64,000 bases of DNA from Lysobacteraceae bacterium. GTDB taxonomy: Bacteria; Pseudomonadota; Gammaproteobacteria; Xanthomonadales; Xanthomonadaceae. The stretch spans positions 102,210-166,209 of the forward strand of contig QBLY01000004.1 in assembly GCA_003241895.1 (NCBI GenBank), written 5' to 3'. The translations under genes and the position numbers were made by a program. Shown piece after piece: positions 2 through 14,069 of the stretch. Within the stretch, counting starts at the first letter, position 1, and the number at the start of each line of letters is the position of its first letter. The notes under the pieces were generated by a model, which was given only the letters and a program-made list of their open reading frames with translations, searched no databases and was not told the origin of the DNA.

Positions 2-322
2 GGTGACCTGTCGTTCGGCTGCACCGGTCTCGCAGGCCTGCGCAACGGGCTGCAGATCTTCCCCGGCGGCATGCCGGTGTATCGCGGCAGCGTGCTGGTG
101 GGCGCCATCGGCGTGTCGGGCGACGGCGTGGACCAGGACGACATGGTCGCGTTCCTGGGCGTGGCCAATGCCGGCACTGCGCTTGGCGGCAGCATCGGCC
201 ACGCCCCGTCGGCGCGGCGCGCCGACACCCTGGTGCCGCAGGGCGCGCGCCTGCGCTACGTGCAGTGTCCGCAGGCGCCGTTCATCGACTCCGCCGAACA
301 GAACGTGTGCGCGGGGCTCTGA
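2..322 (+). CDS. GlcG/HbpS-family heme-binding protein, C-terminal part (5'-partial, runs off the window)
   Basis: Frame open from base 2: ...NGLQIFPGGMPVYRGSVLVGAIGVSGDGVDQDD..., matching the GG.P...G.IGVSG signature of GlcG/HbpS; stop TGA at 320-322, 4 nt before the next ATG. Confidence 0.75.
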   Translation, partial: GDLSFGCTGLAGLRNGLQIFPGGMPVYRGSVLVGAIGVSGDGVDQDDMVAFLGVANAGTALGGSIGHAPSARRADTLVPQGARLRYVQCPQAPFIDSAEQNVCAGL

Positions 323-326
323 GGCC

Positions 327-2162
327 ATGACCCGCGCCCACCGCCACGCCCTGACGCCACGCCGCCGCGCAGGGGCCTGGCTGCTGCTCGCGGTGCTGCC
401 GCTGGCGACCATGGCGCAGGACCAGCCGGCGCAGGAGCCGGCGCAGGAGCCGGCGCAGGAGCCGGCGCAGGACCAGGACGCCGAGGGCGTGGTGCGGCAG
501 CGCCCGCAGGGCCGCCCGCTGGACTACCCGCTGCCGGACATCGACCCGGCGCGCGTGTCGCCGCCGCAAGCCGCCGTGCGCCGCGAGACCCTGCCGGTGC
601 CGGACCGCTGGCGCATCATGGAAAGCCTGGGCGCCGAACGCCGGTGGTGGGACCCGTACAACCCCAACGTGCTCAAGGGCGACCTGCCATTCGAGCCGTT
701 CAAGCGCTGGGGCAACGACTGGTTCCTGGTGCTCACGGGCGTGTCGGACACGCTGGTCGAAGCACGCCGGCTGCCGACGCCGGTCGGTGCACAGTCCAGC
801 GAACGTCCCGGTTCGCTCGACGTCTTCGGGCAGGGCCGGCAGTCCACTTTCAACCAGAACCTGATCGTCGCCGCGGCCGTGATCAAGGGCAACACCACCT
901 TCAAGCCACCCGACTACGAGTTCCGCGTGGCCCTGGCGATCAACTACAACCGAAGCCAAGCCCAGGAAGTGCGGGTGCTGCGGCTGGACCCCGGCGACGG
1001 GCGCGTTCGCATCGACCAGCACGTCGGGCTGCAGGAATTGTTCTACGACAAGCACCTGCGCAATGTCTCGGACCGCTACGATTTCGACAGCCTGCGCGTG
1101 GGCGTGCAGCCGTTCATATCGGATTTCCGCGGCTTCGTGCTGCAGGACAACGCCTTCGGGGTGCGGGTGTTCGGCACCCGCGACAACAATCGCTGGCAGT
1201 ACAACGTGGCGTGGCTGCGGCGCATGGAGAAGGACACCAACAGCGGGCTCAACGACGCCGGGGTGTCGCTGCGCCGCGACGACACGCTGGCCTTCAACCT
1301 CTACCGGCAGGACTTCCCGGTGCTGGGCCACACCACCCAGCTCACCGTGATGCACAACGACAACCGCGAGGGTGGCCGGGTGCTGCGCAACAGCAACGGC
1401 TTCCAGGAGCGCCCCGCCATCCTCGGCGACGCGCGCGGACACGATTACCGCGTCACCTACCTGGGGCTGAGCGGCGATGGCCACTTCGGGCGCTGGAACC
1501 TCAGCTCTTCGCTTTACGCCGCGCTGGGCCGCGACGAGCGCCACCCGCTGGCGCAGCGCGAGAACCGCATCGAGGCCTACTTCGGTGCCGCCGAACTGTC
1601 CCGCGACTTCGACTGGCTGCGCGTGCGCGCCACGGCCATCGCCGCCAGCGGCGATGAGAACCCGTTCGACGGCCGCGCCACCGGTTTCGACGCCATCATG
1701 GAGAATCCGCAGATCGCCGGCGCCGACACCAGCTTCTGGATCCGCCAGGCGGTGCCCCTGGTGGGCGGTGGCGGCGTGGCGCTGTCGGGCCGCAATGGCC
1801 TGCTGCCCAGCCTGCGCTCGTCCAAGGAGCTGGGCCAGTCGAACTTCGTCAATCCCGGGCTGACCCTGTTCGGAATGGGTGCGGACGTGGACGTGTCGCC
1901 ACAGGTGCGCGTGGTCGGCAACCTGGCCAAGCTTGATTTCGTCAACACGTCTTCCCTGTCGGTGCTGCGCGGCCAGGGCGCGATCAGCCGCGATATCGGC
2001 GTGGACCTGTCCGCCGGCGTGCAGTACCGGCCGCATATGAACCAGAACCTGGTGTTCAACGCCTCCGCCGCCGCGCTGTTCCCGGGCAAGGGCTTCCGCC
2101 AACTGTATGCCGAACGCGGCACCCAATACTCACTGCTGCTCAACCTGGTGCTGACCTACTGA
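327..2162 (+). CDS. Outer-membrane beta-barrel protein (alginate-export/porin-like), about 611 aa
   Basis: ATG at 327 inside ORF 3..2162; signal-peptide-like N-terminus (WLLLAVLPLATMA-QD); many alternating amphipathic strands; C-terminus YSLLLNLVLTY ends in an aromatic residue as in BAM substrates. Confidence 0.75.
   Translation: MTRAHRHALTPRRRAGAWLLLAVLPLATMAQDQPAQEPAQEPAQEPAQDQDAEGVVRQRPQGRPLDYPLPDIDPARVSPPQAAVRRETLPVPDRWRIMESLGAERRWWDPYNPNVLKGDLPFEPFKRWGNDWFLVLTGVSDTLVEARRLPTPVGAQSSERPGSLDVFGQGRQSTFNQNLIVAAAVIKGNTTFKPPDYEFRVALAINYNRSQAQEVRVLRLDPGDGRVRIDQHVGLQELFYDKHLRNVSDRYDFDSLRVGVQPFISDFRGFVLQDNAFGVRVFGTRDNNRWQYNVAWLRRMEKDTNSGLNDAGVSLRRDDTLAFNLYRQDFPVLGHTTQLTVMHNDNREGGRVLRNSNGFQERPAILGDARGHDYRVTYLGLSGDGHFGRWNLSSSLYAALGRDERHPLAQRENRIEAYFGAAELSRDFDWLRVRATAIAASGDENPFDGRATGFDAIMENPQIAGADTSFWIRQAVPLVGGGGVALSGRNGLLPSLRSSKELGQSNFVNPGLTLFGMGADVDVSPQVRVVGNLAKLDFVNTSSLSVLRGQGAISRDIGVDLSAGVQYRPHMNQNLVFNASAAALFPGKGFRQLYAERGTQYSLLLNLVLTY
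425..472 (+). repeat. In-frame 12-bp tandem repeat (GCCGGCGCAGGA)x4 encoding a PAQE linker
   Basis: Four exact copies read directly, just after the predicted signal peptide. Confidence 0.95.
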
Positions 2163-5100
2163 TGGCCATTCCAAGCCGACGCCTGCTGAGCCTGATCATG
2201 GTCGGGTGCCTGATGGCGGGCGGCCTGGCCGCGGTGATCGCCGCCGACAAATCGGTGCCGGTGGCCCGGCAGTACGTGATGCATGCGCCGGCGCCGGTGG
2301 CGCAGACGCGCATCGAGGCCAGCGCCAAGTCGGATGGCTGCCAAAGCTGCCACGCCACGCCCGACCACGCGACCATGCACCAGAACCCGGCCGTCATCCT
2401 GGGCTGCACCGACTGCCACGGCGGCAATCCGCAGGTGGCGCAGCCGGCCGGCAGCGTGTATCGGGGCGATGGCCACGCCGCTTACGTCGTGGCCATGGAG
2501 AAGGCGCACGTGCTGCCGCGCTACCCGGCGGACTGGCACGCACCGTCGTCGGCCAATCCCGCGCGCAGCTACACCCTGCTCAATCGCGAAGCGCCGGAGT
2601 TCGTGCGCTTCGTGAACCCCGGCGACCTGCGCGTAGCGCGCTTTTCCTGCGGCGCCTGCCACCTGCCGATCATCCAGGCCAGCGAACGCAGCCTGATGGC
2701 CACCAGCGCGATGTTCTGGGGCGGCGCCGCATACAACAACGGCATCCTTCCCTACAAACGCTACCTGCTGGGCGAGTCCTACACCGCCGACGGCCAGCCG
2801 GCCCTGCTCAAGGCGCCGGTGCCGGTGGACGAACACATGGTGGCCAAGGGCCTGCTGCCGCAGCTGCTGCCCCTGCCGGCCTGGGAAACGGTGCCGCCGG
2901 CGGATGTATTCCGGGTCTTCGAACGCGGCGGACGCGTGATACCGACGCAGTTCCCGGAAGTGGGTTTGCCCAACGTCACCGGGCAGATCCAGCGCCTGGA
3001 CGAACCCGGCCGCCCGGACATCCGCCAGTCCAACCGCGGCCCCGGCACCGGCAGCCGCATCGCGGTGCCGCTGATCAACATCACCAAGACGCGGCTCAAC
3101 GATCCGCACCTGTGGTTCCTGGGCACCAACGAGCAGCCCGGCGACTATCGCTCCTCGGGCTGCACCGCCTGCCATACGCCCTATGCCAACGACCGCGACC
3201 CGCGGCACTCCGGGCCGTACGCCTCGGCCGGGCACCAGGGCCAGAGCCAGAGCGCCGACCCGACCATCCCGCGCGGGGAATCCGGGCATCCGATCAAGCA
3301 TGCGTTCACCCGCGCGATTCCCTCGTCGCAGTGCATGACCTGCCACATGCACCAGCCCAACATCTTCGTCAACAGCTACTTCGGCTACACCATGTGGGAC
3401 TACGAGTCCGACGCCGAGGCGATGTGGCCCAAGCAGCAGCGCTACCCGACCGATTCGGAGATGCGCGAGATATTGGACCGCAACCCCGAGGGGGCCGCGG
3501 TGCGCGGCAACTGGAGCGACCCGGCATTCCTGCGCCAGGTGTCGGAGCTCAATCCCCAGCTCAAGGACACCCAGTTCGCCGACTACCACGGCCACGGCTG
3601 GAACTTCCGCGCGGTGTTCAAGCGCGCACGCGACGGCACCCTGCTCGACAAGGACGGCCTGGAAGTCGCCGACACCGACCCGGAGCGCTTCAAGAAAGCC
3701 GTGCACCTGAGCTCGTCGCACCTGGACGCGGGCATGCACTGCGTGGACTGCCACTTCGGCCAGGACACGCACGGCAACGGCCACATCTACGGCGAAGTGG
3801 CCGCCGCCATCGAGATCGGCTGCAAGGACTGCCACGGCACCACGCGCGAGTACCCCAGCCTGTTCACGTCCGGCCCCGCCGCCGGCCCCCAGGGCACCGA
3901 CCTGAAGCTGCTGCGCACGCCCGATGGCGGCCGCCGCTTCGAATGGCGCGAGGGCCAGCTGTTCCAGCGCTCGGCGGTAACGCCCGGGCTGGAGTGGGAG
4001 ATGAGCCTGGTCAAGGACGCGGTGACGCCAGGCAACGCCCACTACAACGCGAAGGCGGCGCGCGCCAAGACCATGAGCTCGGGCGCCGCCGGACGCATCG
4101 ACGGCGCCTGGGGTGCCGCGGTGGCCCCGTCCGACTACGCCCACGGCGACGACGAGATGACCTGCCACTCCTGCCACACCTCGTGGACCACCAGCTGCTC
4201 GGGCTGCCACCTGCCGATCGAGGCCAACTGGAAGACCGAGCGCCTGCACTACGAGGGCGGCGAGACGCGCAACTACGCCACCTACAACCCGCAGGTGGTG
4301 CGCGACGACGTGTTCTCCTTGGGCCGTACCGGCACCATCTCGGGCAGTAAGATCACACCGGTGCGCTCGAGTTCGGCCCTGGTGCTTTCGTCCACCAACG
4401 CCAACCGTGAACGCATCTACGTGCAGCAGGCGCCGGTCTCCGCCAGCGGATTCTCCAGCCAGGCCTTCGCGCCGCACTACCCGCACACCGAACGCAAGAC
4501 CGAAACCAAGACCTGCACTGACTGCCACGTCTCGGAAGCCAACGACAACAACGCCATCCTGGCGCAGCTGATGCTGCAGGGAACCAACTTCGTCAACTTC
4601 ATCGGCCTGCATGCCTGGGTGGGCGAAGAAGAAGGCATCAGCGCAGTGCAGGTAACCGAGTGGGATGAACCGCAGGCGGTGATCGGCAGCTACCTGCAGC
4701 GTTACGCCTACCCGGATTGGCATGCCGCGCACTTGGCGCGCGGCCGCGAGCTGGCGGTGGCCACCGGCCACGCCACGAACGGCCAGGCGCGCTGCGTCGC
4801 GGTGCGCGGCGAGTATCTGTTCGTGGCCGAGGGCAAGGGCGGCATGCGCGTCTACGACGTGGCCTCGGTGGCCAACAAGGGCGTGTCCCAGCGCATCGTC
4901 AGCGCGCCGTTCTCGCCGCTGGGCCAGGACACGCACGTGCCCAGCCGCGATGCCACCTGCGTGGCCCTGCCCACCAACCAGCCCATCGCCCCGCTGCGCA
5001 ACCAGGGCGAGCTGATGCGCGTGACAAACCAGGAACAGCCCTTCCACCCGATCTACCACTACGCCTTCGTGGTGGATGCGCGCGAGGGCCTGATCCTGGT

Positions 5101-5956
5101 GGACGTGGACACGCTGGCCGACGGCGAACCGCGCAACAATTTCCTGAAGCGCGCGCTCACCTGGGACGGCGACGGCGTGCTGGCCGGCGCGCGCCACGTC
5201 ACTGTCGGCGGCCACTTCCTCTACATCGCCGCCGATGCCGGCCTGGTGGTGGTGGACGTGGACACGCCGCTGTCGCCGCGGGTCGCCGCCGTGCTGCCGA
5301 TGCGCGACGTGCGCGCCACGGCGCTGCAGTTCCGCTACCTGTTCGTGACCAGTGGCGCAGGACTGCAGGTGGTGGACGTGACCCACCCGGCCACGCCCCG
5401 GCGGGTGCCGGGCGCGAACGTGGCGCTGGACGACGCGCACGGCATCTACGTGGCGCGTACCTACGCCTATGTCGCTGCGGGCCGGCAGGGCCTGGCCATC
5501 ATCAACGTCGAGCGGCCGGAGCAGCCGCGCCTGCTGACGCTGTTCACTGCAGGCGGCAAGCTCGATGACGCCCGCGACGTGGTGGTGGGCTCCACCAACG
5601 CCTCGCTGTTCGCCTACGTTGCCGATGGTCGCAACGGCCTGAAGGTGGTGCAGCTCACCGCGCCCGACACCCAGCCCAAGTTCTATGGCTTCTCGCCCGA
5701 GCCGCGGCCGCAGCTGGTGGCCTGGCGCGGCACCGACTCGCCGGCGCTTTCGCTGGCCAAGGGCCTGGACCGCGACCGCGCAGTGGACGAAACCGGCGGC
5801 CAGATCGCGGTGTTCGGCCGCATTGGTTCGCGGCCGCTCAATGCCGATGAAGTGAAGAAGTTCTTCCTCAATCCTGACGGCAGCCCGTGGACCGTCCTCG
5901 ATTGGGACCCGGGCACGCCACGCTCGCCCGCCAACGCCGCCGGGAGCCCGCCATGA
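2162..5956 (+). CDS. Decaheme c-type cytochrome fused to C-terminal LVIVD repeats, 1264 aa
   Basis: 10 CxxCH motifs counted (CQSCH, CTDCH, CGACH, CTACH, CMTCH, CVDCH, CKDCH, CHSCH, CSGCH, CTDCH); N-terminal signal peptide; repeats LILVDVDT, LVVVDVDT, LQVVDVTH, LAIINVER, LKVVQLT; TGATG overlap with the upstream gene. Confidence 0.9.
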   Translation: MAIPSRRLLSLIMVGCLMAGGLAAVIAADKSVPVARQYVMHAPAPVAQTRIEASAKSDGCQSCHATPDHATMHQNPAVILGCTDCHGGNPQVAQPAGSVYRGDGHAAYVVAMEKAHVLPRYPADWHAPSSANPARSYTLLNREAPEFVRFVNPGDLRVARFSCGACHLPIIQASERSLMATSAMFWGGAAYNNGILPYKRYLLGESYTADGQPALLKAPVPVDEHMVAKGLLPQLLPLPAWETVPPADVFRVFERGGRVIPTQFPEVGLPNVTGQIQRLDEPGRPDIRQSNRGPGTGSRIAVPLINITKTRLNDPHLWFLGTNEQPGDYRSSGCTACHTPYANDRDPRHSGPYASAGHQGQSQSADPTIPRGESGHPIKHAFTRAIPSSQCMTCHMHQPNIFVNSYFGYTMWDYESDAEAMWPKQQRYPTDSEMREILDRNPEGAAVRGNWSDPAFLRQVSELNPQLKDTQFADYHGHGWNFRAVFKRARDGTLLDKDGLEVADTDPERFKKAVHLSSSHLDAGMHCVDCHFGQDTHGNGHIYGEVAAAIEIGCKDCHGTTREYPSLFTSGPAAGPQGTDLKLLRTPDGGRRFEWREGQLFQRSAVTPGLEWEMSLVKDAVTPGNAHYNAKAARAKTMSSGAAGRIDGAWGAAVAPSDYAHGDDEMTCHSCHTSWTTSCSGCHLPIEANWKTERLHYEGGETRNYATYNPQVVRDDVFSLGRTGTISGSKITPVRSSSALVLSSTNANRERIYVQQAPVSASGFSSQAFAPHYPHTERKTETKTCTDCHVSEANDNNAILAQLMLQGTNFVNFIGLHAWVGEEEGISAVQVTEWDEPQAVIGSYLQRYAYPDWHAAHLARGRELAVATGHATNGQARCVAVRGEYLFVAEGKGGMRVYDVASVANKGVSQRIVSAPFSPLGQDTHVPSRDATCVALPTNQPIAPLRNQGELMRVTNQEQPFHPIYHYAFVVDAREGLILVDVDTLADGEPRNNFLKRALTWDGDGVLAGARHVTVGGHFLYIAADAGLVVVDVDTPLSPRVAAVLPMRDVRATALQFRYLFVTSGAGLQVVDVTHPATPRRVPGANVALDDAHGIYVARTYAYVAAGRQGLAIINVERPEQPRLLTLFTAGGKLDDARDVVVGSTNASLFAYVADGRNGLKVVQLTAPDTQPKFYGFSPEPRPQLVAWRGTDSPALSLAKGLDRDRAVDETGGQIAVFGRIGSRPLNADEVKKFFLNPDGSPWTVLDWDPGTPRSPANAAGSPP

Positions 5957-7284
5957 ACCGCCTCTTGCGCCGACTTTCCCCGGCCCTGCTGCTGTGCGCA
6001 AGCCAAGCCTGGGCGCAGGCGGCGGCGCCGCTGCCCTACCAGTCCACTGACCAGTCGCTGGGCACGGTGAACTGCGCCAACAGCCTGTGCCACGGCTCGA
6101 TCACGCCCTGGCATGAATCACCGGTGCTGCGCAACGAGTACGTCACCTGGTCGCGGCTGGACAAACATGCGCGGGCCTACCGCGTGCTGCACAACGAGCG
6201 CTCGCGCACCATCGTCCGCAATCTCGGGCTGCCCACGCCGGCGCACGAAACCAAGCTGTGCCTGGACTGCCACGCGCACAACGTCCCCGAGGCGCAGCGT
6301 GGCGAACGCTTCAACCTGTCCGACGGCGTCACCTGCGAGGCCTGCCACGGCCCGGCGGAGCGATGGATCCAGTCACATGTCGAACCCGGCGCCAGCCATG
6401 CCGGCAATCTCGACCGGGGCCTGTACCCGACCAGCGATGCCGACAGCCGCGCCAAGCTGTGCCTGTCGTGCCACTGGGGCAACCAGGACAAGTTGGTGAA
6501 CCACCGGCTGATGGGCGCAGGCCATCCGCGCATGAGCTTCGAGCTGGAAACCTTCACCGCCATCGCACCGGCCCACTTCCGCGTGGACGCCGACTACCTG
6601 GCCCGCAAGCCCGCCGTGGACGGGGTGAAGGTATGGGCCATCGGCCAGGCGCTGGCGGTGCAGGAAATGATGGACCTGCTGGTGGACCCCAAGCGTGGCC
6701 GCGACGGCCTGTTCCCCGAGCTGGTGCTGTTCGACTGCCACGCCTGCCACCACCCGATGTCGCAGGCGAAGTGGCAGCCGCGTGGGCAGTTCGGTGCACA
6801 TGCGGGGCCCGGCACGGTCCGGCTGAACGACTCGGGCATGCTGATGCTGCGGGCGGTGGCCCGCGAAGTGGATCCGGCGCTGGGCCTGCGCGTGGGCCGG
6901 CAGGTGTCGCGCCTGCACCTGGCCGTCGCCGGCCAGGGCGACGCCATCGCCGAAGCGCGGGCGCTCAAGCGCCTGGCGGCCGAAGTGGCGCTGCGCATCG
7001 ACACCCACGCGTTCTCCGCCGCATCGCCCGGCCACATCGCGCTGGCGCTGGTGGACGAAGGACTGGCGGGCGGCTACGCCGACTACGCCGGCGCCGAACA
7101 GGCGGCGATGGCGATCGGCAGCGTCGTGGACCACATGCACAAGCGCGGCCTGGCCGCCCCGGCCGGCGCGCTCAACGCCGCATTGGAACGCCTCAACGCC
7201 GCGCTGGCGGACGACGAGGCATACCGTCCGGCCCAATTCCAGCAGCGCCTGCGCGAGATGCGCGCGCTGCTGGTCGCGAAATGA
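5953..7284 (+). CDS. Multiheme c-type cytochrome (c554/c552-like N-domain plus helical C-domain), 443 aa
   Basis: ATGA overlap at 5953-5956; signal peptide (…ASQAWA-Q); CLDCH, CEACH, CLSCH, CHACH plus atypical CANSLCH. Confidence 0.85.
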   Translation: MNRLLRRLSPALLLCASQAWAQAAAPLPYQSTDQSLGTVNCANSLCHGSITPWHESPVLRNEYVTWSRLDKHARAYRVLHNERSRTIVRNLGLPTPAHETKLCLDCHAHNVPEAQRGERFNLSDGVTCEACHGPAERWIQSHVEPGASHAGNLDRGLYPTSDADSRAKLCLSCHWGNQDKLVNHRLMGAGHPRMSFELETFTAIAPAHFRVDADYLARKPAVDGVKVWAIGQALAVQEMMDLLVDPKRGRDGLFPELVLFDCHACHHPMSQAKWQPRGQFGAHAGPGTVRLNDSGMLMLRAVAREVDPALGLRVGRQVSRLHLAVAGQGDAIAEARALKRLAAEVALRIDTHAFSAASPGHIALALVDEGLAGGYADYAGAEQAAMAIGSVVDHMHKRGLAAPAGALNAALERLNAALADDEAYRPAQFQQRLREMRALLVAK

Positions 7285-7312
7285 CCCTGCAGATGCCCTG
7301 GAGAAAACCAGC

Positions 7313-9733
7313 ATGAGCGGCAAGTTCCGGATCGCCATCATCGGCTCGGGGCCCGCGGGCCTGTCGGCCGCTGCCCACGCGGCCGAGCTCGGGCTTTCGC
7401 ACGTGCTGCTCGAGGCCGAGAAGCACGCATCCAATACGCTTTTCAAGTACCAGAAAGGCAAGCACGTGATGGCCGAGCCGGGCGTTCTGCCGCTGCGAAG
7501 CCCGCTGGCGTTCGAGGCCGGCACGCGCGAGAGCATCCTCGAGGGCTGGAACCAGTCGCTGCACCAGCACCAGGTCAACGTGCGCTATGGCGCCAATGTC
7601 ACTGGCGTCTCGGGGCAGCGCGGCGATTTCCAGATCACGCTGGCCGACGGCGGCACCGTGCAGGCCGAGACCGTGGTCCTGGCGATCGGCCTGCAGGGCA
7701 ACATCCGCAAGTTCGGGGTGCCCGGCGAAGACCTGCCCAACGTGCAGTACCAGCTCGACGACCCAGATGAATACAGCGCAGAGACCATCGTGGTGGTCGG
7801 CGGCGGCGACGCCGGCATCGAGAACGCGCTGGCGCTGACCGCCGGAAACCGCGTCTTCTTGATCAACCGCGAGGAGGAGTTCAACCGCTGCAAGGAAGGC
7901 AACCTGGGCCTGCTGAAGGCGGCGATCGCTGACGGCCGGATCGAGCCGCGCTCGAGCACGGCGGCGCAACGCATCGAGACCCAGGCCGAGGGCGAGCTGC
8001 CGCTGTGCTTCGTGGCGCGCACGCCCAAGGGCGAGGAGCGCATACCCTGCCACCGGGTCATCGGGCGATTGGGCGCCAGCCCGCCGCGAGCTTTGGTGGA
8101 AAGCTTCGGCGTGGTGTTCCCCAACAAGGACCGGGACGCCGTGCCCGCGGTGTCCGACCACTACGAATCCAACGTGCCCGGGATCTACATCATCGGCGCA
8201 CTGGGCGGCTACCCGCTGATCAAGCAGGCGCTCAACCAGGGTTACGAGGTGGTCGAGTACATCCTGGGCAACCCGGTGGAACCGGCGGACGAGCCGCTGC
8301 TCAAGGCCAAGTTCGCCGCCTACCGGGGCGCAGCCACGGTCAGCGAGGCGATCGCCCGGATACAGGCCGCGGTGCCGCTGCTGTCGGGCCTGACCACGCT
8401 GCAGCTGCGGGAGTTCCTGCTCGACAGCGAGATCCACCTGCCCCGGGACGGCGAGACGGTGTTCCTGCGCAACGACTACACCAACTCGCTGTACTGCATC
8501 GTCGAAGGCGAAGTGTCGGTGCTGCCCGAGCTGGTGGACGACGACGAACGCCGCATCCGGCTCGGCACGGGCGCTTTCTTTGGCGAGATGGGGCTGATCT
8601 CGGGCCGCCGGCGCAATGCCTCGGTGGTGGCCGGGCCCGGCTGCATGCTGGTGGAGACGCCGCGCCGGTCGATGCTCAAGCTGCTGGGCTCGGTGGCGTC
8701 GGTCAAGCGCATCCTGGACCAGGAATCGGTTCAGCGCGCGGTGCAGGCGTTCCTGGGCGTGCAGGTGTCCGACACCGAGCTGCATTTCCTGGCCCAGGGC
8801 GCCGAGATCCGCAGTTACGCCGCCGGACAGGTGCTGTTCGAACAGGGCCAACAAGCCGACGGGCTGTACCTGATCCGACGCGGCTCGGTGACCATCTCGC
8901 GGCTTCTCGGTGGCCGGGAAATCGTGCTGTCGTACGTGGCGGCCGGTAACTACGTGGGCGAAATGGCGCTTATTTCCAGCGCGCCGCGTTCGGCCACGGT
9001 GCGCGCGGCGGTGGCTACCGAGGCCGTGGTGCTGACGTCGGCGCGGGTGAAGCGGGTGCTGGCGGGCAACGAAAGCCTGCGCGCCGAAGTGGACGCGATG
9101 GCGCTGGGCCGAATGCAGGACAACCTGGGCATGGAGCAGGACGCAGCGCCCGGCGACCTGATCAACTTCCTGATGAAGCAGGGCCTCGGTGAAGCCACCG
9201 ACGTGCTGCTGATAGACGCGTCGCTGTGCGTTCGCTGCGACAACTGCGAGAAGGCGTGCGCCGACACCCACGGCGGCACCTCGCGCCTGGACCGCGAGGC
9301 CGGCCCCACCTTCGCCCAGATCCACGTGCCCACCTCCTGCCGGCACTGCGAACATCCGCACTGCATGAAGGACTGCCCGCCCGACGCCATCCACCGCTCC
9401 CGCGACGGCGAGGTGTTCATCAGCGACAGCTGCATCGGCTGCGGCAACTGCGAGCGCAACTGCCCCTACGGCGTTATCCGGATGGCGCCCGTACAGGGCG
9501 AACGCCGCGGTGGCGGCCTGCTGTCTTGGCTGCTGCTGGGCCTGGGCGACGAACCGGGCACCGAACCCAAGGCCGTGCCTGACGCCAAGACCAAGAAGGT
9601 CGCGGTGAAGTGCGACATGTGCAAGGACCTGCCCGCCGGTCCCGCCTGCGTGCGCAGCTGCCCCACCGGCGCGGCCATCCGCACCACGCCCGAGCGCTTC
9701 CTGGACTTCGCCGCGCAGCGCGAGGCGCGCTAG
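7313..9733 (+). CDS. FAD-dependent pyridine nucleotide-disulfide oxidoreductase / 2x cyclic-nucleotide-binding / 4Fe-4S polyferredoxin fusion, 806 aa
   Basis: GSGPAG and GGGDAG Rossmann motifs; two cNMP cassettes (FFGEMGLISGRRRNASV, YVGEMALISSAPRSATV); four Cys groups CVRCDNCEKAC, CRHCEHPHCMKDCP, CIGCGNCERNCP, CDMC...CVRSCP as in DmsB/NrfC. Confidence 0.9.
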   Translation: MSGKFRIAIIGSGPAGLSAAAHAAELGLSHVLLEAEKHASNTLFKYQKGKHVMAEPGVLPLRSPLAFEAGTRESILEGWNQSLHQHQVNVRYGANVTGVSGQRGDFQITLADGGTVQAETVVLAIGLQGNIRKFGVPGEDLPNVQYQLDDPDEYSAETIVVVGGGDAGIENALALTAGNRVFLINREEEFNRCKEGNLGLLKAAIADGRIEPRSSTAAQRIETQAEGELPLCFVARTPKGEERIPCHRVIGRLGASPPRALVESFGVVFPNKDRDAVPAVSDHYESNVPGIYIIGALGGYPLIKQALNQGYEVVEYILGNPVEPADEPLLKAKFAAYRGAATVSEAIARIQAAVPLLSGLTTLQLREFLLDSEIHLPRDGETVFLRNDYTNSLYCIVEGEVSVLPELVDDDERRIRLGTGAFFGEMGLISGRRRNASVVAGPGCMLVETPRRSMLKLLGSVASVKRILDQESVQRAVQAFLGVQVSDTELHFLAQGAEIRSYAAGQVLFEQGQQADGLYLIRRGSVTISRLLGGREIVLSYVAAGNYVGEMALISSAPRSATVRAAVATEAVVLTSARVKRVLAGNESLRAEVDAMALGRMQDNLGMEQDAAPGDLINFLMKQGLGEATDVLLIDASLCVRCDNCEKACADTHGGTSRLDREAGPTFAQIHVPTSCRHCEHPHCMKDCPPDAIHRSRDGEVFISDSCIGCGNCERNCPYGVIRMAPVQGERRGGGLLSWLLLGLGDEPGTEPKAVPDAKTKKVAVKCDMCKDLPAGPACVRSCPTGAAIRTTPERFLDFAAQREAR

Positions 9734-12700
9734 ACCGGGTTGTCGCCCGCCTCACGGGCCGGCCGGCGGCGCGCGGCCTTGGGCTTGGGCTTGGGCTTGG
9801 GCTTGGGGGATTGGTCGCCAGGTGCGGGCGCGGGGAGCGCTGTCGCCAGGGGCTCGGGCACGTCGCGCACGTGGATGTCCAACTGCGGGTAAGCGAAGGC
9901 GATGCCGCTCTCATCGAAAAGCTCGATCAGGCGCGTGTTGATCTCGTCGCGCACCGCCAACCGGTCACCAAAGGTGCCCACGAAGATGCGCAGCTCGAAC
10001 TCGAGCGTACTGGCGCCGAAGTTCAGCAGCCAGCTGGTGGGCGGCCGATCAGACAGCACCCGCGGGTTTTCCGCGGCGGCCTGCTGCAGCAGGCGATGCA
10101 CCAGCTTGGGGTCGGTGCCGTAGTCCACGCCGACCGCGATGGTGATGCGGGTGGCTTCGTCGCTCAGCGTCCAGTTCACCAGCTGGCCGGTGATGAAGGT
10201 CTTGTTGGGTACCACGATTTCCTTGTTGTCGAAGTCCAGCAAAGTGGTCGCGCGCGTGCGGATGCGCGTCACGGTGCCGTCGAGATTGTTCACCGTGATC
10301 ACGTCGCCCACCCGGAACGGCCGCTCGAACAGCAGGATCAGGCCAGAGACGAAGTTGGCGAAGATCTCCTGCAGGCCGAAACCCAGGCCCACCGTCAGCG
10401 CCGCCGCCATCCACTGCAGCTGGCCCCAGCGCAGGCCCAACAGGCCCACGCCGACCACCACGCCCACCAGCACGATGACGTAACGCGACACGCTGGTGAT
10501 GGCATAGCGCGAGGCCGCGTCGATGTTCACTTTCGACAGCAGCCCGATCTCGATCAGGCCCGGCAGGTTGCGTGCAGCCACCACGGTGAACGCCAGAACC
10601 AGCATCCCCAACATCACCGCCATCAGCGTCACCGGTACCTGGACGTCAATGCCGTCCAATCCGGTCTCGGTGCTCGACCACAGCGCGAACTCGTCAAACC
10701 GCGCGAAGGCGGGCAGCACGCCGGACCAGACCCAAGCCAGCCCCACTACCAGCAGGGTCAAGGTGATGGCGCGAAGCAGGCTGCGGGTATGCGCATTGAC
10801 CTTTTCCAGCGTGAGCGCGTCTTCCGATTCCGCTGCGATCGCCTCGCCACCGTCGACGCTCTCGCCGCCGCCCTCGGCCAAGGCCTGGGCCTCGGCCTCG
10901 CGTCGCTGCTCGAGCCGACGCAGGGCCAGCCGCCGCTCGCCGAGCACGAACCAGCGCAACAGCATGCCGCGCACCACGGCTACCGCCGTCACCATGCCGA
11001 CGCTGGCGAACATCGCGTTGAACACCATGCCGGCCGAGTAGACATAGCCGTCCATCGCCAGCACCGCGCAGGCGATCAGTGCAAACGGCAGCAGTACGCG
11101 CAGCGTCCGGCGCCGCCGGGACGGCTCGACGCTGGCGCCGCGCCGGTGCGTGAGCTGGTCCGGAGCCAGCACGCGCCACAGCATCCACGCGCTGAGCAGC
11201 GAGGCCGCGACCATCGCCACACGGGCCTGCACTGCGATGGCAAGCTCCTGGTTGCGCAGGAAGGCCAGCGAGGCGATCAGGAACAGCGGCAGCAACCCCG
11301 CCATCAGGCGCGGCGTCCAACGGGCCAGCGCCTCGCGCCGCGGCCGGCTCCAGCGGAAGTGCGCGTGCGCCAAGCCGCGCTCGCGCACCAGCCAGCGCAG
11401 GAACGCCAGGGTGAATGCGGGCATCGCGACGCTGGCGAGGGCCCGGCCCAGCGAATCGCTGTACTTGCCGGGCGTGCCCAGGTCCTGCAGCAGCGTGCCC
11501 GCCACCAGCAGGGCCAAAGCCCATGGCAGCGCCGCCACGATGGTCCAGCCCAGGGCCAGCAGGGTCGGGCGCAGGCGTACTTCCCGCTTCGCCGGCGCCA
11601 GCGCATCCAGTCGGCTGCGCGCACGGTGCTGCAGCACCAGCAGCGCCAGCACCAGCACCACGCCGGCCACGGGACCCCACGGCGACTGCTGGAACGAGCG
11701 CTGCGCCAGCTCGAAGGTGGTCGCCAGGCGCGACGGCTTCACCAGGTCGTGCAGTCCCGCGGGAACCCTGGCCAACCACGCGCTGCCCACGGGGGGATGG
11801 CTGCGGATCCACAGCAGGTGTCGATCCAGCGTCTGGCGCAGCTGGAGGTTGGCTTGAATACGGGCCTTGAGGCTGCGCTCGCTCTGTTCGAGCGCGCTGA
11901 CGTGGCGCCACATCAGCGGTTCCAGCCGGTCAGTGAGGTCCAGGCGCTCGCGCAGAAGGTCTTCGAGCAGGTTGGGCTGCGCTTCTTCGCGGGCCTGCCC
12001 GTCCTCGTCCACACCCGGCGCACCGTCGTGCAGACGCTCGGCGGCGCGGGCGGGATCGCCCAGTTCGCGCTGGGTTTCGTTCAGGCCGATCATGCGCAGG
12101 CGCAGTTCGCCCAAGGTCTGTTCGACCTCGGCCAGCTCCTTGTCCAGCACGGCTTCGGGCTCAAGGCGCCGCAGTTCCGCCCACAGCCAGTTGCCGACCT
12201 CTTCGCTGCGGCCACCCAGCTCCACGCGCGCGAGGCTGTCGCGCAACCCGGCCAGGTCGCGTGCCAGGGCTTCGTCCTGCCGGCCCACGTAACGCCGGCG
12301 GTCGGCGAGACTTTCGTTGGTCTGGACCATTTCGTTGGCCAGCGCTACGTTCCCGACGGCTGCGCTGGCCACCAGCGGTGCCTGCGCGGCGTACGCCTTG
12401 GCGCGCTCGGTGACCGCTCCGGCGAGCTGTTCAAGCTCTTCGCGACCGAGGGCGGCGATGCGCTCCTGCAGCAGCGCCAGCCGGGGCGTGCGCAGGCCCA
12501 GGTCGTGCCGCAGGGTGCGCAGCTCCAGCTCCAACAGCCGCTGGCGGGTGCCGGCCAGGTCCTGTTGGTCCTGGCGCAGCGCCAGATCCGCCATGACCTG
12601 GCGACGCTCGGCGGCGTTGCGCTGGCGACGCGCCTGGGTGAGCTTCTCCGGCTCGCCGTCGGTGGCGGCCACGGTAGCGGCGAGTTCGTCCGCGCGACGC

Positions 12701-13185
12701 TGCAGGTCGGCGATCGCTCCTTCAGGCCCGATGGTCTGCCCCAGCGACCGCGACAGGTCGGACGTTACGGCTTCGATGCGCTCGCGCAGCTGGCCGATGG
12801 CGGTCCGCTCCTGCTCGAGCGAGGCCTCAAGCGTTTCGATATTGGTGGTGCGCGGCAGCTTCGCGCGCCAGTCGGCCAGGGACTTGCGCGGATCCGCAGC
12901 CAGCCGGGCTTCCAGCGCCGCGGTACGCGCCGGGGCGCTGGCGGCTTCGGTGCGCAGCGCTTCGCGCCGCTTTTCCAAGATGCGCGACTCCTCCTCGGCG
13001 GTGGCCGCGGCTTGGGTCAACTCCGCCAGCACTTTCTCCTGCGCATTCGCATCGCCGCTTCCGCTCGAGCCGCCCAGCCCCAACGGCAGCGAGGCCAGTG
13101 CGATGGACGGCGGCAGGCACGCGACCAGGGCGCAAAGCGCCGCGGTCCGGCAGAAGGTCACGAAGTAACGGGAGGGGATGCGCAT
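9730..13185 (-). CDS. MscK-like large mechanosensitive channel (MscS family), 1151 aa
   Basis: Signal peptide, long coiled-coil periplasmic region, many TM helices, MscS signature [29 protein letters not shown]. Confidence 0.9.
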
Positions 13186-13256
13186 GGCGCAAGGCTAGCC
13201 CTGACGGGCGCAGGCGGCAATTCGCCGCCTTCACGCCGCTCTGGGACAATGCCGGC

Positions 13257-14069
13257 ATGCCCGAACTGCCCGAAGTCGAAACCACCCGCCGCGGCTTGGC
13301 GCCCCACGTCGAAGGCCGCACGGTGACCGGGGTGGTGCTGCGGCGGCCCGACCTGCGCTGGCCGATTCCGCCCGAGGTGGGGGCGTTGCTGCCCGGCCAG
13401 CGCGTGCTGGGCGTGCGCCGGCGGGCGAAGTACCTGCTGCTGGACACCGCGCCGGGCAGCGCGCTGCTGCACCTGGGCATGTCCGGCATGCTGCGCGTAT
13501 TGCCGGCCGCCACCCCGGTGCAAACCCACGACCACGTGGACATCGCGCTCGATTCGGCCTGCGTGCTGCGCTTCACCGACCCGCGCCGCTTTGGCTGCCT
13601 GCTCTGGCAGCCCGCCGGGGAAACCCACGACCTGCTCCAGCACCTGGGCCCGGAGCCGCTGTCGGAGGACTTCGACGCGGAATATCTCTACCAGCGAAGC
13701 CGCGGCCGCAAGGCCCCCATCAAGGCCTTCCTGATGGACCAGGCCGTGGTGGTGGGCGTGGGCAACATCTACGCCGCCGAAAGCCTGTTCCGCGCCGGCA
13801 TCGCCCCGCGGCGCGCCGCCGGGTCGGTCAGCCGCGAGCGCTACGTCCGGCTGGTGGCGGCGGTGAAGACCATCCTGGCCCACGCCATCACCCGCGGCGG
13901 CACCACCCTGCGCGACTTCCTGAACCCCGACGGCGCGCCGGGCTATTTCGAACAGGAGCTGTTCGTCTACGGCCGCGAAGGCGAGCCCTGCAGGACCTGT
14001 GGCCGCACCCTCCGCGACGGCCGCATGGGCAACCGGGCCACCGCCTGGTGCGCCGGCTGCCAGCGGTGA
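13257..14069 (+). CDS. mutM: Formamidopyrimidine-DNA glycosylase
   Basis: [10 protein letters not shown]-terminus, HLGMSG, GVGNIYA, C-terminal Zn finger CRTC...CAGCQ. Confidence 0.97.

What the first reader, a model, noticed from the sequence alone, without database searches (positions are those of the whole stretch)
2..9733. Uncharacterised envelope-spanning redox operon: heme-binding protein, beta-barrel, two multiheme cytochromes and a cNMP-binding flavo-Fe-S protein
Seen: five co-oriented genes with gaps of 4 nt, -1 (TGATG), -4 (ATGA) and 28 nt. They encode a GlcG/HbpS-like protein, an OM barrel, a 10-heme and a 4-5-heme exported cytochrome (14-15 heme sites in total), and a cytoplasmic FAD/cNMP/4x[4Fe-4S] protein. 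Known: barrel-plus-decaheme pairs (MtrAB, PioAB, MtoAB) form trans-outer-membrane electron conduits, but these proteins do not resemble them in size or architecture. Inference: one system may link outer-membrane or periplasmic heme chemistry to cytoplasmic NAD(P)H under cyclic-nucleotide control. I recognise no named pathway with this composition, and it is unexpected in a heterotrophic Xanthomonadaceae-like host. The operon continues upstream of the window.
Basis: partly seen in the sequence, partly recalled or inferred. Interest (0 to 1): 0.88.

Follow-up and report, generated by a model that had tools for sequence, protein, structure and literature searches.

The report
Widespread seven-gene envelope electron-transfer operon
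The five genes are real and are the downstream part of a seven-gene operon, found in hundreds of proteobacterial species but never characterised, that most likely carries electrons from cytoplasmic NAD(P)H across the inner membrane to 25 periplasmic hemes docked at an outer-membrane barrel.

Summary
In detail: five co-oriented genes, the stated junctions, 10 + 5 c-heme sites and 16 Fe-S cysteines. The window is from an Arenimonas-like genome.

A 98%-identical contig supplies the missing upstream part:
- a 5-TM protein with four invariant membrane histidines, a di-heme cytochrome b signature
- an FHA–TM–decaheme cytochrome

At least 584 species genomes carry the large cytochrome, with strict synteny around it. 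The flavo-Fe-S/cNMP gene always travels with the cluster, in either of two positions. In one distant variant its FAD and Fe-S parts (no cNMP domains) are fused to the FHA-cytochrome.

The barrel model is an 18-strand, AlgE-like fold, not MtrB-like. An Mtr-type cytochrome-in-porin conduit is therefore unlikely.

Best reading: cNMP-gated NAD(P)H → FAD → 4×[4Fe-4S] → 2 heme b → 25 heme c, ending at a decaheme–β-propeller protein beside the barrel. The terminal substrate is unknown.

Two preprints describe parts or siblings of this layout, the ptd operon and the FHA-nonaheme cytochrome of Ferrigenium. Both say function unknown. I rate it a new variant of a barely described kind.

The parts
2..322 (+). 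C-terminal 106 residues of gene C: a ~630-aa outer-membrane-type lipoprotein with repeated HbpS-like/DUF336 domains. Its first ~525 residues lie upstream of the window.
   Evidence: Pfam HbpS-like, E 8e-8. The full gene in L001 6293-8185 has HbpS-like E 7e-22 in 3 stretches. A lipobox is present in 49/59 homologues. PDB sequence relatives are EfgA, the PduO C-terminal domain and a putative extracellular heme-binding protein.
327..2162 (+). Gene D: outer-membrane barrel protein of 611 aa. It has a signal peptide, a conserved proline-rich periplasmic extension (aa ~31-125) and an 18-strand barrel (aa 132-610, nt ~720-2159). A conserved loop at aa 456-507 is modelled with low confidence.
   Evidence: AF2 model, pLDDT 64 overall and 78-90 in the strands, with 18 long strands. 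Foldseek best hit is AlgE, E 8e-16, TM 0.65-0.68. The C-terminal residue is F or Y in every homologue listed. The gene lies upstream of E on the same strand in 54/54 loci. No Pfam or NCBIfam family matches.
2162..4711 (+). Gene E, N-terminal part: signal peptide plus a decaheme c-type cytochrome domain (aa 1-850).
   Evidence: 10 CxxCH are invariant in 81/82 homologues, with at least 11 further invariant His. Identity is 60-74% across proteobacterial classes. There is no PDB relative by sequence. The profile search gives only marginal matches to NrfA and NrfB, E about 0.01. ExtM is matched only at motif level, 74 bits against a cut-off of 800.
4712..5956 (+). Gene E, C-terminal part: LVIVD-repeat beta-propeller domain (aa ~851-1264).
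   Evidence: Pfam LVIVD, E 1e-20. In distant members the conserved residues are D/E/N/R/K and none is an invariant His or Cys. Some distant family members lack this domain (822-aa P0161).
5953..7284 (+). Gene F: exported pentaheme c-type cytochrome of 443 aa (4 CxxCH plus 1 CX4CH).
   Evidence: All five motifs and five distal His are invariant in 47/47 homologues. Pfam Cytochrome_C554, E 9e-9. It directly follows E in 37/72 loci and is present in 48/72.
7313..8287 (+). Gene G, domain 1: FAD and NAD(P)H-binding domain of the thioredoxin-reductase-like ferredoxin-NADP reductase type. It has no redox-active CxxC.
   Evidence: Pfam Pyr_redox_2/3, E about 1e-26 to 1e-28. PDB relatives are 2zbw, 5ygq (FNR) and YpdA/Bdr. 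Both dinucleotide motifs are conserved, and the only conserved Cys lie in the Fe-S domain. There is no signal peptide.
8375..9112 (+). Gene G, domains 2-3: tandem cyclic-nucleotide-binding domains.
   Evidence: Pfam cNMP_binding, E 1.4e-35, 2 stretches. The tandem arrangement aligns to PKA regulatory subunit and PKG. The phosphate-binding-cassette motifs FGE...R.AT are conserved in both domains.
9206..9733 (+). Gene G, domain 4: HycB/FdnH/NrfC-type ferredoxin domain with four [4Fe-4S] sites.
   Evidence: 16 Cys are invariant in 53/53 homologues. PDB relatives are HycB3/4, FHL subunit 2, NrfC and FdnH.

Best explanation
The window holds the downstream 4.2 genes of a seven-gene operon. I label the genes A to G, in the order they have here.

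- **A** is a 5-TM di-heme cytochrome b.
- **B** is an FHA–TM–decaheme cytochrome c.
- **C** is an outer-membrane lipoprotein with HbpS-like/DUF336 domains.
- **D** is an 18-strand AlgE-like outer-membrane barrel.
- **E** is a decaheme cytochrome with a beta-propeller.
- **F** is a pentaheme cytochrome.
- **G** is a cytoplasmic protein with FAD/NAD(P)H, two cNMP and four [4Fe-4S] domains.

**Proposed mechanism.**
1. G oxidises NAD(P)H, and cyclic-nucleotide binding gates it allosterically.
2. Electrons pass from FAD through the four Fe-S clusters to the cytoplasmic-side heme of A (His92/His264).
3. They cross the membrane to A's periplasmic-side heme (His106/His278).
4. They enter the ten hemes of membrane-anchored B, then F, then E.
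5. E sits at the inner face of the outer membrane with D and C.

The barrel is too narrow to hold a cytochrome. D is more likely a dedicated channel or anchor that brings a soluble oxidant to E, or threads the lipoprotein C. It is less likely an Mtr-type sheath.

**Shown:** the gene content, the cofactor motifs and their invariance, the synteny, the B::G fusion, the barrel fold class, and transcription of relatives.

**Inferred:** b-heme binding, the G–A docking, the direction of flow, the order B to F to E, and the role of D. The terminal substrate is unknown.
For: **Operon completion.** A 98%-identical contig (L001) gives A, B and the full-length C upstream of the window.

**Distribution and synteny.**
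- At least 584 species genomes carry E.
- The order A-B-C-D-E is essentially fixed.
- G is present in 39/39 fully covered loci. It sits after F in 16, directly before A in 16 and nearby in 7.

**Rosetta-stone fusion.** In the distant variant L083 one 1233-aa protein is FHA×3–TM–9 CxxCH–TM–Fer4–Pyr_redox. It matches both B and G. An A homologue sits beside it (E 7e-33, four His kept), followed by C, D and E homologues.

**Gene A.**
- Its only conserved His are 92, 106, 116, 264 and 278 (58-59/59).
- Two pairs are 14 residues apart, on TM3 and TM5, at matching membrane depths.
- 44/50 homologues hit Pfam PF01292 (prokaryotic cytochrome b561, best E 6e-8).
- 20/50 hit Ferric_reduct weakly.

**Gene G.** The Fe-S domain is of the FdnH/HycB type, which in formate dehydrogenase-N feeds a PF01292 cytochrome b (plus established knowledge of 1kqf). 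G has no signal peptide and keeps the FAD, NAD(P)H and cNMP motifs.

**Heme ligation.** All 25 c-heme motifs are invariant. The numbers of invariant non-motif His match or exceed the heme counts (10, 5 and at least 11), which is compatible with bis-His ligation.

**Transcription.** Soil and sediment metatranscriptome contigs of roughly 87-90%-identical relatives run across the g2/g3, g3/g4 and g4/g5 junctions.

**Literature.** A Ferrigenium preprint finds the TM protein, FHA-nonaheme cytochrome and [4Fe-4S] protein adjacent and expressed. The ptd preprint lists a parallel set of parts.

**Energetics (inference).** Outward flow from NAD(P)H is downhill and is helped by the membrane potential.
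Against: - No biochemical datum exists for any component.
- The model of gene A found no significant structural relative, and its Pfam matches are below or near threshold.
- PF01292 proteins usually react with quinones. The quinone pool, rather than G, could be the donor.
- The barrel model has moderate confidence (pLDDT 64). Two conserved regions (aa 31-125 and 456-507) are unmodelled. A different oligomeric or partner-induced state cannot be excluded.
- The location of E, periplasmic or surface, is untested.
- F and C are absent from some loci, so they are not obligatory links.
- The FHA domain's canonical phosphothreonine-binding Ser is poorly conserved.
- The L083 fusion lacks cNMP domains.
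Confidence: 0.55

Rival explanations
1. Quinol-fed inner-membrane module of the CbcL/CymA type. A plus B oxidise quinol and pass electrons to the periplasmic cytochromes for anaerobic or micro-oxic respiration. G is a regulator or side input, not the main donor.
For: A belongs to the PF01292/FdnI/HydC-like clan, whose members bind quinones. Geobacter CbcL is a fusion of such a di-heme b domain with a nonaheme cytochrome c (my knowledge). The Ferrigenium authors favour a link to quinone. The invariant fifth His116 at the periplasmic edge of TM4 could belong to a quinone site.
Against: G is retained next to A-B in 39/39 covered loci, in two independent arrangements, and its FAD and Fe-S parts are fused to B in L083. 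A four-cluster Fe-S wire plus an NAD(P)H flavoprotein is an electron-transfer device, not a typical sensor. His116 is not kept in the distant L083 homologue.
Confidence: 0.2
2. A true trans-outer-membrane porin–cytochrome conduit, functionally like MtrCAB/PioAB. A cytochrome (F, or part of E) sits inside barrel D and E is extracellular, reducing minerals or electrodes.
For: The barrel gene is tightly coupled to the decaheme gene. They overlap as TGATG in this window, and gaps are short in most loci. The cluster holds 25 c-hemes. ccm genes are adjacent in several loci. The ptd authors propose a porin–cytochrome complex.
Against: The barrel model has 18 strands and is closest to AlgE, OccD and sugar porins. 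MtrB is not among the top 50 hits. There is no MtrB_PioB Pfam match. F and E score far below the MtrA/DmsE and MtrC family cut-offs. E is not a lipoprotein, with a lipobox-like motif in only 8/82 homologues. E's 60-74% identity across classes is unlike the fast-evolving surface cytochromes (inference). The hosts are mostly aerobes.
Confidence: 0.15
3. Inward electron uptake. The system oxidises an external or periplasmic donor such as Fe(II) and passes the electrons inward to quinone or NAD(P)+.
For: The A-B-G module occurs, and is expressed, in the Fe(II) oxidiser Ferrigenium.
Against: Reducing NAD(P)+ from c-type hemes is strongly uphill, and inward electron movement works against the membrane potential (established bioenergetics). 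Most hosts are heterotrophs or methanotrophs, not lithotrophic iron oxidisers.
Confidence: 0.07
4. Not one system. G, and perhaps C, are merely neighbours of a periplasmic cytochrome operon.
For: In L002, G lies 8.4 kb away from F. C and F are missing from some loci.
Against: G is in 39/39 covered loci. The two arrangements keep it adjacent to A or to F. The B::G fusion exists. Metatranscriptome contigs span the F/G junction.
Confidence: 0.03

Closest known systems
ptdABCDEFG putative operon of marine Alphaproteobacteria UBA11136 and others (bioRxiv 10.1101/2023.11.21.568154; function 'completely unknown')
   Same: By the authors' description the parts list runs in parallel. It has a FAD/NAD(P) oxidoreductase and a cNMP-binding 4Fe-4S protein, which together correspond to G. 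It has a ferric-reductase-like TM protein (A) and a periplasmic decaheme (B). It has a tetraheme by CxxCH count (F has 4 CxxCH), a porin, and a terminal multiheme protein with a beta-rich C-terminal domain. The accession order in their Table S7 gives porin–tetraheme–decaheme–TM–cNMP/FeS–FAD.
   Different: In Ptd the terminal protein is an NrfA-family pentaheme with a beta-sandwich, not a 1264-aa decaheme with an LVIVD propeller. No HbpS-like lipoprotein and no FHA domain are mentioned. The flavoprotein and the cNMP/Fe-S protein are separate genes. Homology could not be tested because no Ptd sequences were at hand.
TM protein + FHA-nonaheme cytochrome + [4Fe-4S] protein of Ferrigenium straubiae (bioRxiv 10.64898/2026.01.22.701106, section 6.3.2)
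   Same: It has the same three-part inner-membrane module: a 5-TM protein, a single-TM cytochrome with a cytosolic FHA domain, and a cytosolic Fe-S protein. The genes are adjacent and expressed. The authors state that the function is unknown.
   Different: No barrel, propeller cytochrome or lipoprotein is reported there. That cytochrome has nine hemes, not ten. The authors found no redox motif in the TM protein, whereas four invariant His and PF01292 matches are found here.
Formate dehydrogenase-N FdnH/FdnI and related four-cluster Fe-S subunit + PF01292 di-heme cytochrome b pairs; Geobacter CbcL; NOX/ferric-reductase and Fre–MsrQ systems
   Same: A four-[4Fe-4S] ferredoxin-like domain is paired with a di-heme transmembrane cytochrome b. 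As in CbcL, the b-type domain is coupled to a 9-10-heme cytochrome c. As in NOX and MsrQ, a cytoplasmic NAD(P)H flavoprotein is coupled to two stacked b hemes that carry electrons outward.
   Different: Here the Fe-S domain is cytoplasmic, so the orientation is opposite to Fdn-N. The His pattern is 2+2 on TM3 and TM5 rather than the FdnI pattern. The parts are separate polypeptides. cNMP and FHA regulatory domains are added. No quinone site has been identified.
MtrCAB / PioAB / MtoAB porin–cytochrome conduits
   Same: An outer-membrane barrel gene is adjacent to decaheme cytochrome genes, and the cluster is heme-rich.
   Different: The barrel has 18 strands and is AlgE-like, not the 26-28 strands of MtrB/PioB. 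The cytochromes are not MtrA/DmsE or MtrC/OmcA family members. The large cytochrome is not a lipoprotein and carries a propeller.
Geobacter extHIJKLMNOPQS cluster (PMC5877670)
   Same: It combines a small porin-like barrel that is not of the Pcc type, several multiheme cytochromes and an inner-membrane cytochrome b. It is linked to reduction of soluble oxyanions (selenite, tellurite) rather than minerals. ExtM is the best NCBIfam match of E.
   Different: The ExtM match is only 74 bits against a cut-off of 800. The ext cluster has a Rieske protein and a rhodanese, and no flavo-Fe-S/cNMP protein, FHA domain, propeller or HbpS-like protein.

Membership tests
MtrAB/PioAB-type porin–cytochrome conduit | 26-28-strand MtrB/PioB-family barrel (Pfam PF11854) wide enough to sheath a decaheme | tested here: not met
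   No Pfam match. The AF2 model has 18 strands. Foldseek's top hits are AlgE, OccD/K and sugar porins, and MtrB is not in the top 50.
MtrAB/PioAB-type porin–cytochrome conduit | MtrA/DmsE-family periplasmic decaheme (TIGR03508) and MtrC/OmcA-family surface lipoprotein (TIGR03507) | tested here: not met
   g4 scores 21.9 bits against a cut-off of 192 and 19.2 against 209. g3 matches neither family. g3 lacks a conserved lipobox.
Di-heme transmembrane cytochrome b (Pfam PF01292 / 2-heme cytochrome clan) | Four conserved membrane-embedded His forming two bis-His sites at two membrane depths | tested here: met
   His92, His106, His264 and His278 are present in 58-59/59 homologues. The spacing is 14 residues on TM3 and on TM5, with matching depth. 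They are kept in the distant L083 homologue.
Di-heme transmembrane cytochrome b (Pfam PF01292 / 2-heme cytochrome clan) | Significant sequence or structure match to the family | tested here: inconclusive
   44/50 homologues hit PF01292 at E<=0.1, best 5.7e-8. The L001 protein itself has no hit. The fold search and the PDB profile search found nothing significant.
Thioredoxin-reductase-like ferredoxin-NAD(P)+ reductase | Two dinucleotide-binding motifs, and no redox-active CxxC disulfide | tested here: met
   GSGPAG and GAGDA motifs are conserved. No conserved Cys lies outside the Fe-S domain. PDB matches are 2zbw, 5ygq and YpdA at about 1e-10 to 1e-11. NCBIfam equivalog cut-offs are not reached, so this is a family-level assignment only.
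HycB/FdnH/NrfC-type four-cluster ferredoxin | Sixteen Cys in four [4Fe-4S] motifs | tested here: met
   All 16 are invariant in 53 homologues. PDB hits are HycB3/4, FHL subunit 2, NrfC and FdnH.
Cyclic-nucleotide-binding domain (PF00027) | Beta-roll with a phosphate-binding cassette (G-E ... R-x-A) | tested here: met
   E 1.4e-35, two domains. The FGE...RR.AT and GEMAL...R.AT motifs are conserved. Which nucleotide binds is not testable here.
FHA domain (PF00498) on the upstream decaheme | Fold match plus the phosphothreonine-binding Arg/Ser/His/Asn residues | tested here: inconclusive
   Pfam 34.8 bits, above the cut-off of 20.7. G-R and H-A are conserved, but the canonical Ser and the N-G motif are poorly conserved.
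ptdABCDEFG operon | Sequence homology of each component to PtdA-G | not testable with these tools
   Only accession numbers and descriptions were available. The composition matches for four components. It differs for the terminal cytochrome and for the lipoprotein.
Geobacter ExtM (NCBIfam NF040943 equivalog) | Score of at least 800 bits over the full model | tested here: not met
   73.9 bits. The best stretch covers 48 residues.
AlgE-type alginate export barrel (Pfam PF13372) | Sequence family membership | tested here: not met
   The likeness is in fold only, at 11-13% identity. There is no Pfam hit and no alginate genes are nearby.

The most novel reading that the evidence does not exclude
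This is a NOX-like, quinone-independent electron-export machine. Cytoplasmic NAD(P)H is oxidised by a cNMP-gated flavo-Fe-S protein. The electrons cross the inner membrane through a split di-heme cytochrome b into a 25-heme periplasmic wire that ends at a decaheme–propeller enzyme beside a dedicated outer-membrane channel. The whole system is additionally controlled by phospho-Ser/Thr signalling through the FHA domain, PP2C and the kinase neighbours. It is widespread in aerobic Proteobacteria. It could be the unknown enzyme system behind extracellular reduction chemistry of heterotrophs, such as metal or oxyanion reduction or superoxide production.
Probability: 0.3. Interest if true: 0.9.

Novelty: new variant of a known kind. 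Interest (0 to 1): 0.72.

Why it matters
- **Scale.** More than 8000 protein clusters in public data match each of the two proteins D and E, and at least 584 species genomes carry E. It is 60-74% identical across proteobacterial classes. Yet every copy that carries a name is annotated 'hypothetical', and no component has been studied.
- **Mechanism.** If the proposed path is right, it would be a direct, regulated wire from the cytoplasmic pyridine-nucleotide pool to the periplasm or outer membrane, bypassing quinones. That design is known from eukaryotic NADPH oxidases and from MsrQ, but has not been joined to multiheme cytochromes.
- **Ecology.** The cluster occurs in ordinary aerobic soil, freshwater, marine and mat bacteria and in methanotrophs. 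It could explain redox activities of 'non-electroactive' heterotrophs.
- **Tractability.** Cultured carriers make it directly testable: Limnobacter alexandrii LZ-4, Stagnimonas aquatica THS-13, Spectribacter acetivorans P385 and Fontimonas sp.

Tried and rejected
- **PDB sequence and profile searches.** g2 and g3 gave no match and g4 only marginal ones (E 0.08 and above) by single sequence. The g3 profile gave E about 0.01 to NrfA and NrfB. The gene A profile gave nothing.
- **Fold search with the gene A model.** No hit below E 0.1. Cytochrome b561 appears only at E about 4, so it does not count as evidence.
- **The Uet cluster of Tenderia.** It was the only paper pairing 'LVIVD' with 'multiheme', and it is a different system.
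- **The MHCscan survey paper.** It does not mention this cluster's features.
- **Search for recurrent nucleotide cyclases.** None was found. The recurrent neighbours are ccmA/B/I in 5-11 loci, and PP2C plus a double-FHA protein in 4-6 loci.
- **RNA evidence from the same organism.** The only RNA run of the source mat sample held nothing. Evidence comes only from relatives roughly 87-90% identical in soil and sediment metatranscriptomes, where DNA carry-over cannot be excluded.
- **Full-length g3 for the representative search.** It exceeded the 1200-aa limit, so the heme domain alone was used. That gave 624 clusters at E<=1e-30.
- **Structure of g3.** Not predicted.

Full report
**1. Observation**

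The five genes are present as described.

| Gene | Coordinates | Junction to the next gene |
|---|---|---|
| g1 (partial) | 2-322 | 4-nt gap |
| g2 | 327-2162 | TGATG overlap |
| g3 | 2162-5956 | ATGA overlap |
| g4 | 5953-7284 | 28-nt gap with a GGAGAA ribosome-binding site |
| g5 | 7313-9733 | – |

- g3 has ten CxxCH sites. g4 has four CxxCH plus one CX4CH.
- g5 has sixteen cysteines in four Fe-S motifs, two dinucleotide-binding motifs and two cNMP-binding domains.
- All of these sites are invariant in 82, 47 and 53 homologues taken from other genomes.
- Base composition is flat at 68-72% G+C, so nothing suggests a recent insertion.
- Downstream, an MscK-like channel gene converges on g5 and ends the operon.

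**2. What lies upstream**

A JGI metagenome contig whose g3 protein is 98% identical to the window's (L001) supplies the rest of the operon.

- **Gene A** is 286 aa with five transmembrane helices and no Pfam hit.
- **Gene B** is 560 aa: a cytoplasmic FHA domain, one TM helix and ten CxxCH.
- **Gene C** is 630 aa: a lipoprotein signal, a Gly/Pro linker and HbpS-like/DUF336 repeats.

**3. Distribution and synteny**

- E and D each have more than 8000 database relatives. Every one that carries a name is 'hypothetical'.
- The heme domain of E defines 624 clusters at 50% identity with E<=1e-30.
- A scan of one genome per species found at least 584 carriers.
  - The MAGs are labelled Arenimonas (93% identity, so the window is Arenimonas-like), Burkholderiales, Rhodoferax, Usitatibacter, Silanimonas, Dokdonella, Nevskia, Methylobacter, Methylococcus, Rhodospirillaceae, Acetobacteraceae and a few Acidobacteriota.
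  - The cultured strains are Limnobacter alexandrii, Stagnimonas aquatica, Spectribacter acetivorans and a Fontimonas sp..
- Of 54 loci with enough upstream DNA, D is present in 54, A in 52, B in 51 and C in 50.
- G is in all 39 loci covered on both sides. It follows F in the Arenimonas/Burkholderiales type, or directly precedes A in most other Gamma- and Alphaproteobacteria.
- F follows E in about half of the loci. C is missing from a few.
- The genes therefore travel together, and G keeps company with the cluster through a rearrangement.

**4. A natural fusion**

A distant relative of E lacks the propeller (822 aa, 36% identity). It sits in a cluster with this order:

1. an A homologue (E 7e-33 to my A profile, all four TM histidines kept)
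2. one 1233-aa protein made of three FHA domains, a TM helix, nine CxxCH, a second hydrophobic helix, a 4Fe-4S domain and a Pyr_redox flavoprotein domain
3. an HbpS-like lipoprotein
4. a D homologue (44% identity)
5. the cytochrome itself

B and G are thus one polypeptide there. This argues strongly that they work in one complex here.

**5. Gene A as the membrane crossing**

- Across 59 homologues at 35-55% identity, the only conserved histidines are 92, 106, 116, 264 and 278.
- By the positive-inside rule the N-terminus is cytoplasmic.
  - His92 and His264 lie about 8 residues into TM3 and TM5.
  - His106 and His278 lie about 22 residues in.
  - These are two bis-His sites stacked across the bilayer.
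- 44 of 50 homologues give sub-threshold to significant hits to Pfam PF01292 (prokaryotic cytochrome b561/FdnI/HydC family, best 5.7e-8). 20 hit Ferric_reduct weakly and 16 hit DUF4405.
- The AlphaFold model (pLDDT 72) found no significant structural neighbour. The case therefore rests on sequence.
- The ptd preprint independently calls its counterpart 'ferric reductase-like'.

**6. Gene G**

- The N-terminal domain resembles TrxR-like ferredoxin-NADP reductases and YpdA, and has no redox-active disulfide.
- The middle is a PKA-R/PKG-like tandem of cNMP-binding domains with conserved phosphate-binding cassettes.
- The C-terminus is a HycB/FdnH/NrfC-type four-cluster ferredoxin.
- FdnH-type subunits are the known partners of PF01292 cytochromes b in formate dehydrogenase-N (established knowledge).
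- G has no export signal, so it would dock on the cytoplasmic face. That may be on the 115-residue cytoplasmic loop of A or on the FHA domain of B (inference).

**7. The barrel**

- With a 56-sequence alignment, AlphaFold gives 18 long strands (aa 132-610) with pLDDT about 80-88.
- A conserved N-terminal extension and a conserved loop at 456-507 are poorly modelled.
- Foldseek places it with AlgE (E 8e-16, TM 0.65-0.68), then OccD/K and sugar porins. MtrB is absent from the top 50.
- Every homologue listed ends in F or Y.
- An 18-strand pore cannot sheath a decaheme protein as the 26-strand MtrB does (established knowledge of 6R2Q).
- D more probably does one of three things. It may admit a soluble substrate, anchor E at the outer membrane, or let the linker of lipoprotein C pass.
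- The precedent is the Geobacter ext cluster. There a small porin-like protein and periplasmic multiheme cytochromes serve oxyanion reduction. ExtM is also the best, though weak, NCBIfam match of E.

**8. The cytochromes**

- B has ten invariant non-motif histidines for ten hemes. F has five for five. E has at least eleven for ten.
- Those counts are compatible with bis-His electron-transfer hemes throughout.
- E has no solved relative, and its profile gives only marginal matches.
- The propeller keeps acidic, amide and basic residues. It has no invariant His or Cys across distant members, so a His/Cys-bound metal centre is unlikely.
- E's very high conservation suggests a constrained enzyme or a multi-partner hub rather than a surface 'wire' (inference).

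**9. Regulation and expression**

- G carries the cNMP domains and B carries an FHA domain.
- In four to six gammaproteobacterial loci a PP2C phosphatase and a double-FHA protein follow F on the same strand.
- In this genome an ECF sigma factor and a Ser/Thr kinase lie 3-4 genes downstream.
- ccmA/B/I genes adjoin the cluster in several Burkholderiales loci.
- Metatranscriptome contigs from soils and sediment, roughly 87-90% identical to the window, span the D/E, E/F and F/G junctions. This is consistent with co-transcription in relatives.

**10. Mechanism and rivals**

I favour NAD(P)H → FAD → 4×[4Fe-4S] (G) → 2 heme b (A) → 10 heme c (B) → 5 (F) → 10 (E), at or through D and C (confidence 0.55).

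- Outward flow is thermodynamically natural and inward flow to NAD(P)+ is not.
- The main rival is a quinol-fed, CbcL-like input in which G is ancillary (0.2).
- An Mtr-like outer-membrane conduit is less likely because of the barrel size (0.15).
- The terminal reaction is unknown. A soluble oxidant reaching E through D is my working guess.

**11. Comparison and novelty**

- Two preprints touch this system.
  - The Ferrigenium study describes the TM/FHA-nonaheme/[4Fe-4S] trio as new and of unknown function.
  - The ODZ study names a ptdABCDEFG operon with a parallel parts list, whose function 'remains completely unknown'.
- Neither describes the HbpS-like lipoprotein, the AlgE-like barrel or the decaheme–propeller protein.
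- Neither reports the His signature of A, the B::G fusion or the breadth of distribution.
- I rate this a new variant of a barely described kind, built from familiar modules in an unfamiliar combination.

Noticed in passing
window 426-473: The signal-proximal linker of barrel protein D contains an in-frame PAQE tandem repeat (PAQEPAQEPAQEPAQD). The related contig L001 lacks it (603 aa against 611 aa). It looks like a length-polymorphic, low-complexity spacer.
   Followed up: no
window 9730-13185 (-): An MscK/MscS-type mechanosensitive channel gene of 1151 aa converges on g5, and the two stop codons overlap by 4 nt. Its C-terminus carries a (PK)n repeat, [10 protein letters not shown].
   Followed up: no
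window ~13254-14069 (+) and downstream; L001 21084-23795: mutM/fpg is followed by an ECF sigma factor and a 937-aa Ser/Thr kinase with TPR repeats. A kinase this close to an operon whose decaheme carries an FHA domain may be a regulatory link, or coincidence.
   Followed up: partly
L083 793-4494: A single 1233-aa protein fuses three FHA domains, a TM helix, nine c-heme sites, a second TM helix, a 4Fe-4S domain and a circularly rearranged flavoprotein domain. As a polypeptide it would have to cross the membrane twice, with c-hemes outside and Fe-S/FAD inside.
   Followed up: partly
PP2C: L036 19329-20216 (-), L040 9648-10745, L048 12750-13508, L050 15174-16013, L058 15423-16277, L072 15056-15844; double-FHA: L045 15119-16033, L050 16056-17039, L058 16389-17330, L072 15747-16748: A PP2C phosphatase gene lies near the cluster in six loci. 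In L040, L048, L050, L058 and L072 it directly follows the pentaheme gene on the same strand. A two-FHA-domain protein gene follows in four loci, suggesting phospho-Ser/Thr control of the system in some lineages.
   Followed up: partly
L026 5791-6240, L029, L035, L042, L069 (between genes B and C): Alphaproteobacterial versions carry an extra conserved ORF of ~150-215 aa with a signal-like N-terminus and no Pfam match, between the decaheme and the lipoprotein genes.
   Followed up: no
L028 (contig CAMCQE010000013): A MAG labelled Klebsiella pneumoniae carries the full cluster at 66% identity to the window's large cytochrome. This is out of keeping with that species and suggests a mislabelled or contaminated bin.
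   Followed up: no
L002 15343-23609: In one 6.8-Mb genome an 8.4-kb insert separates gene F from gene G. The insert holds a PIN toxin pair, a GntR regulator, an amino-acid ABC transporter and a PAS-GGDEF protein. The flavoprotein gene can therefore be displaced yet retained.
   Followed up: no
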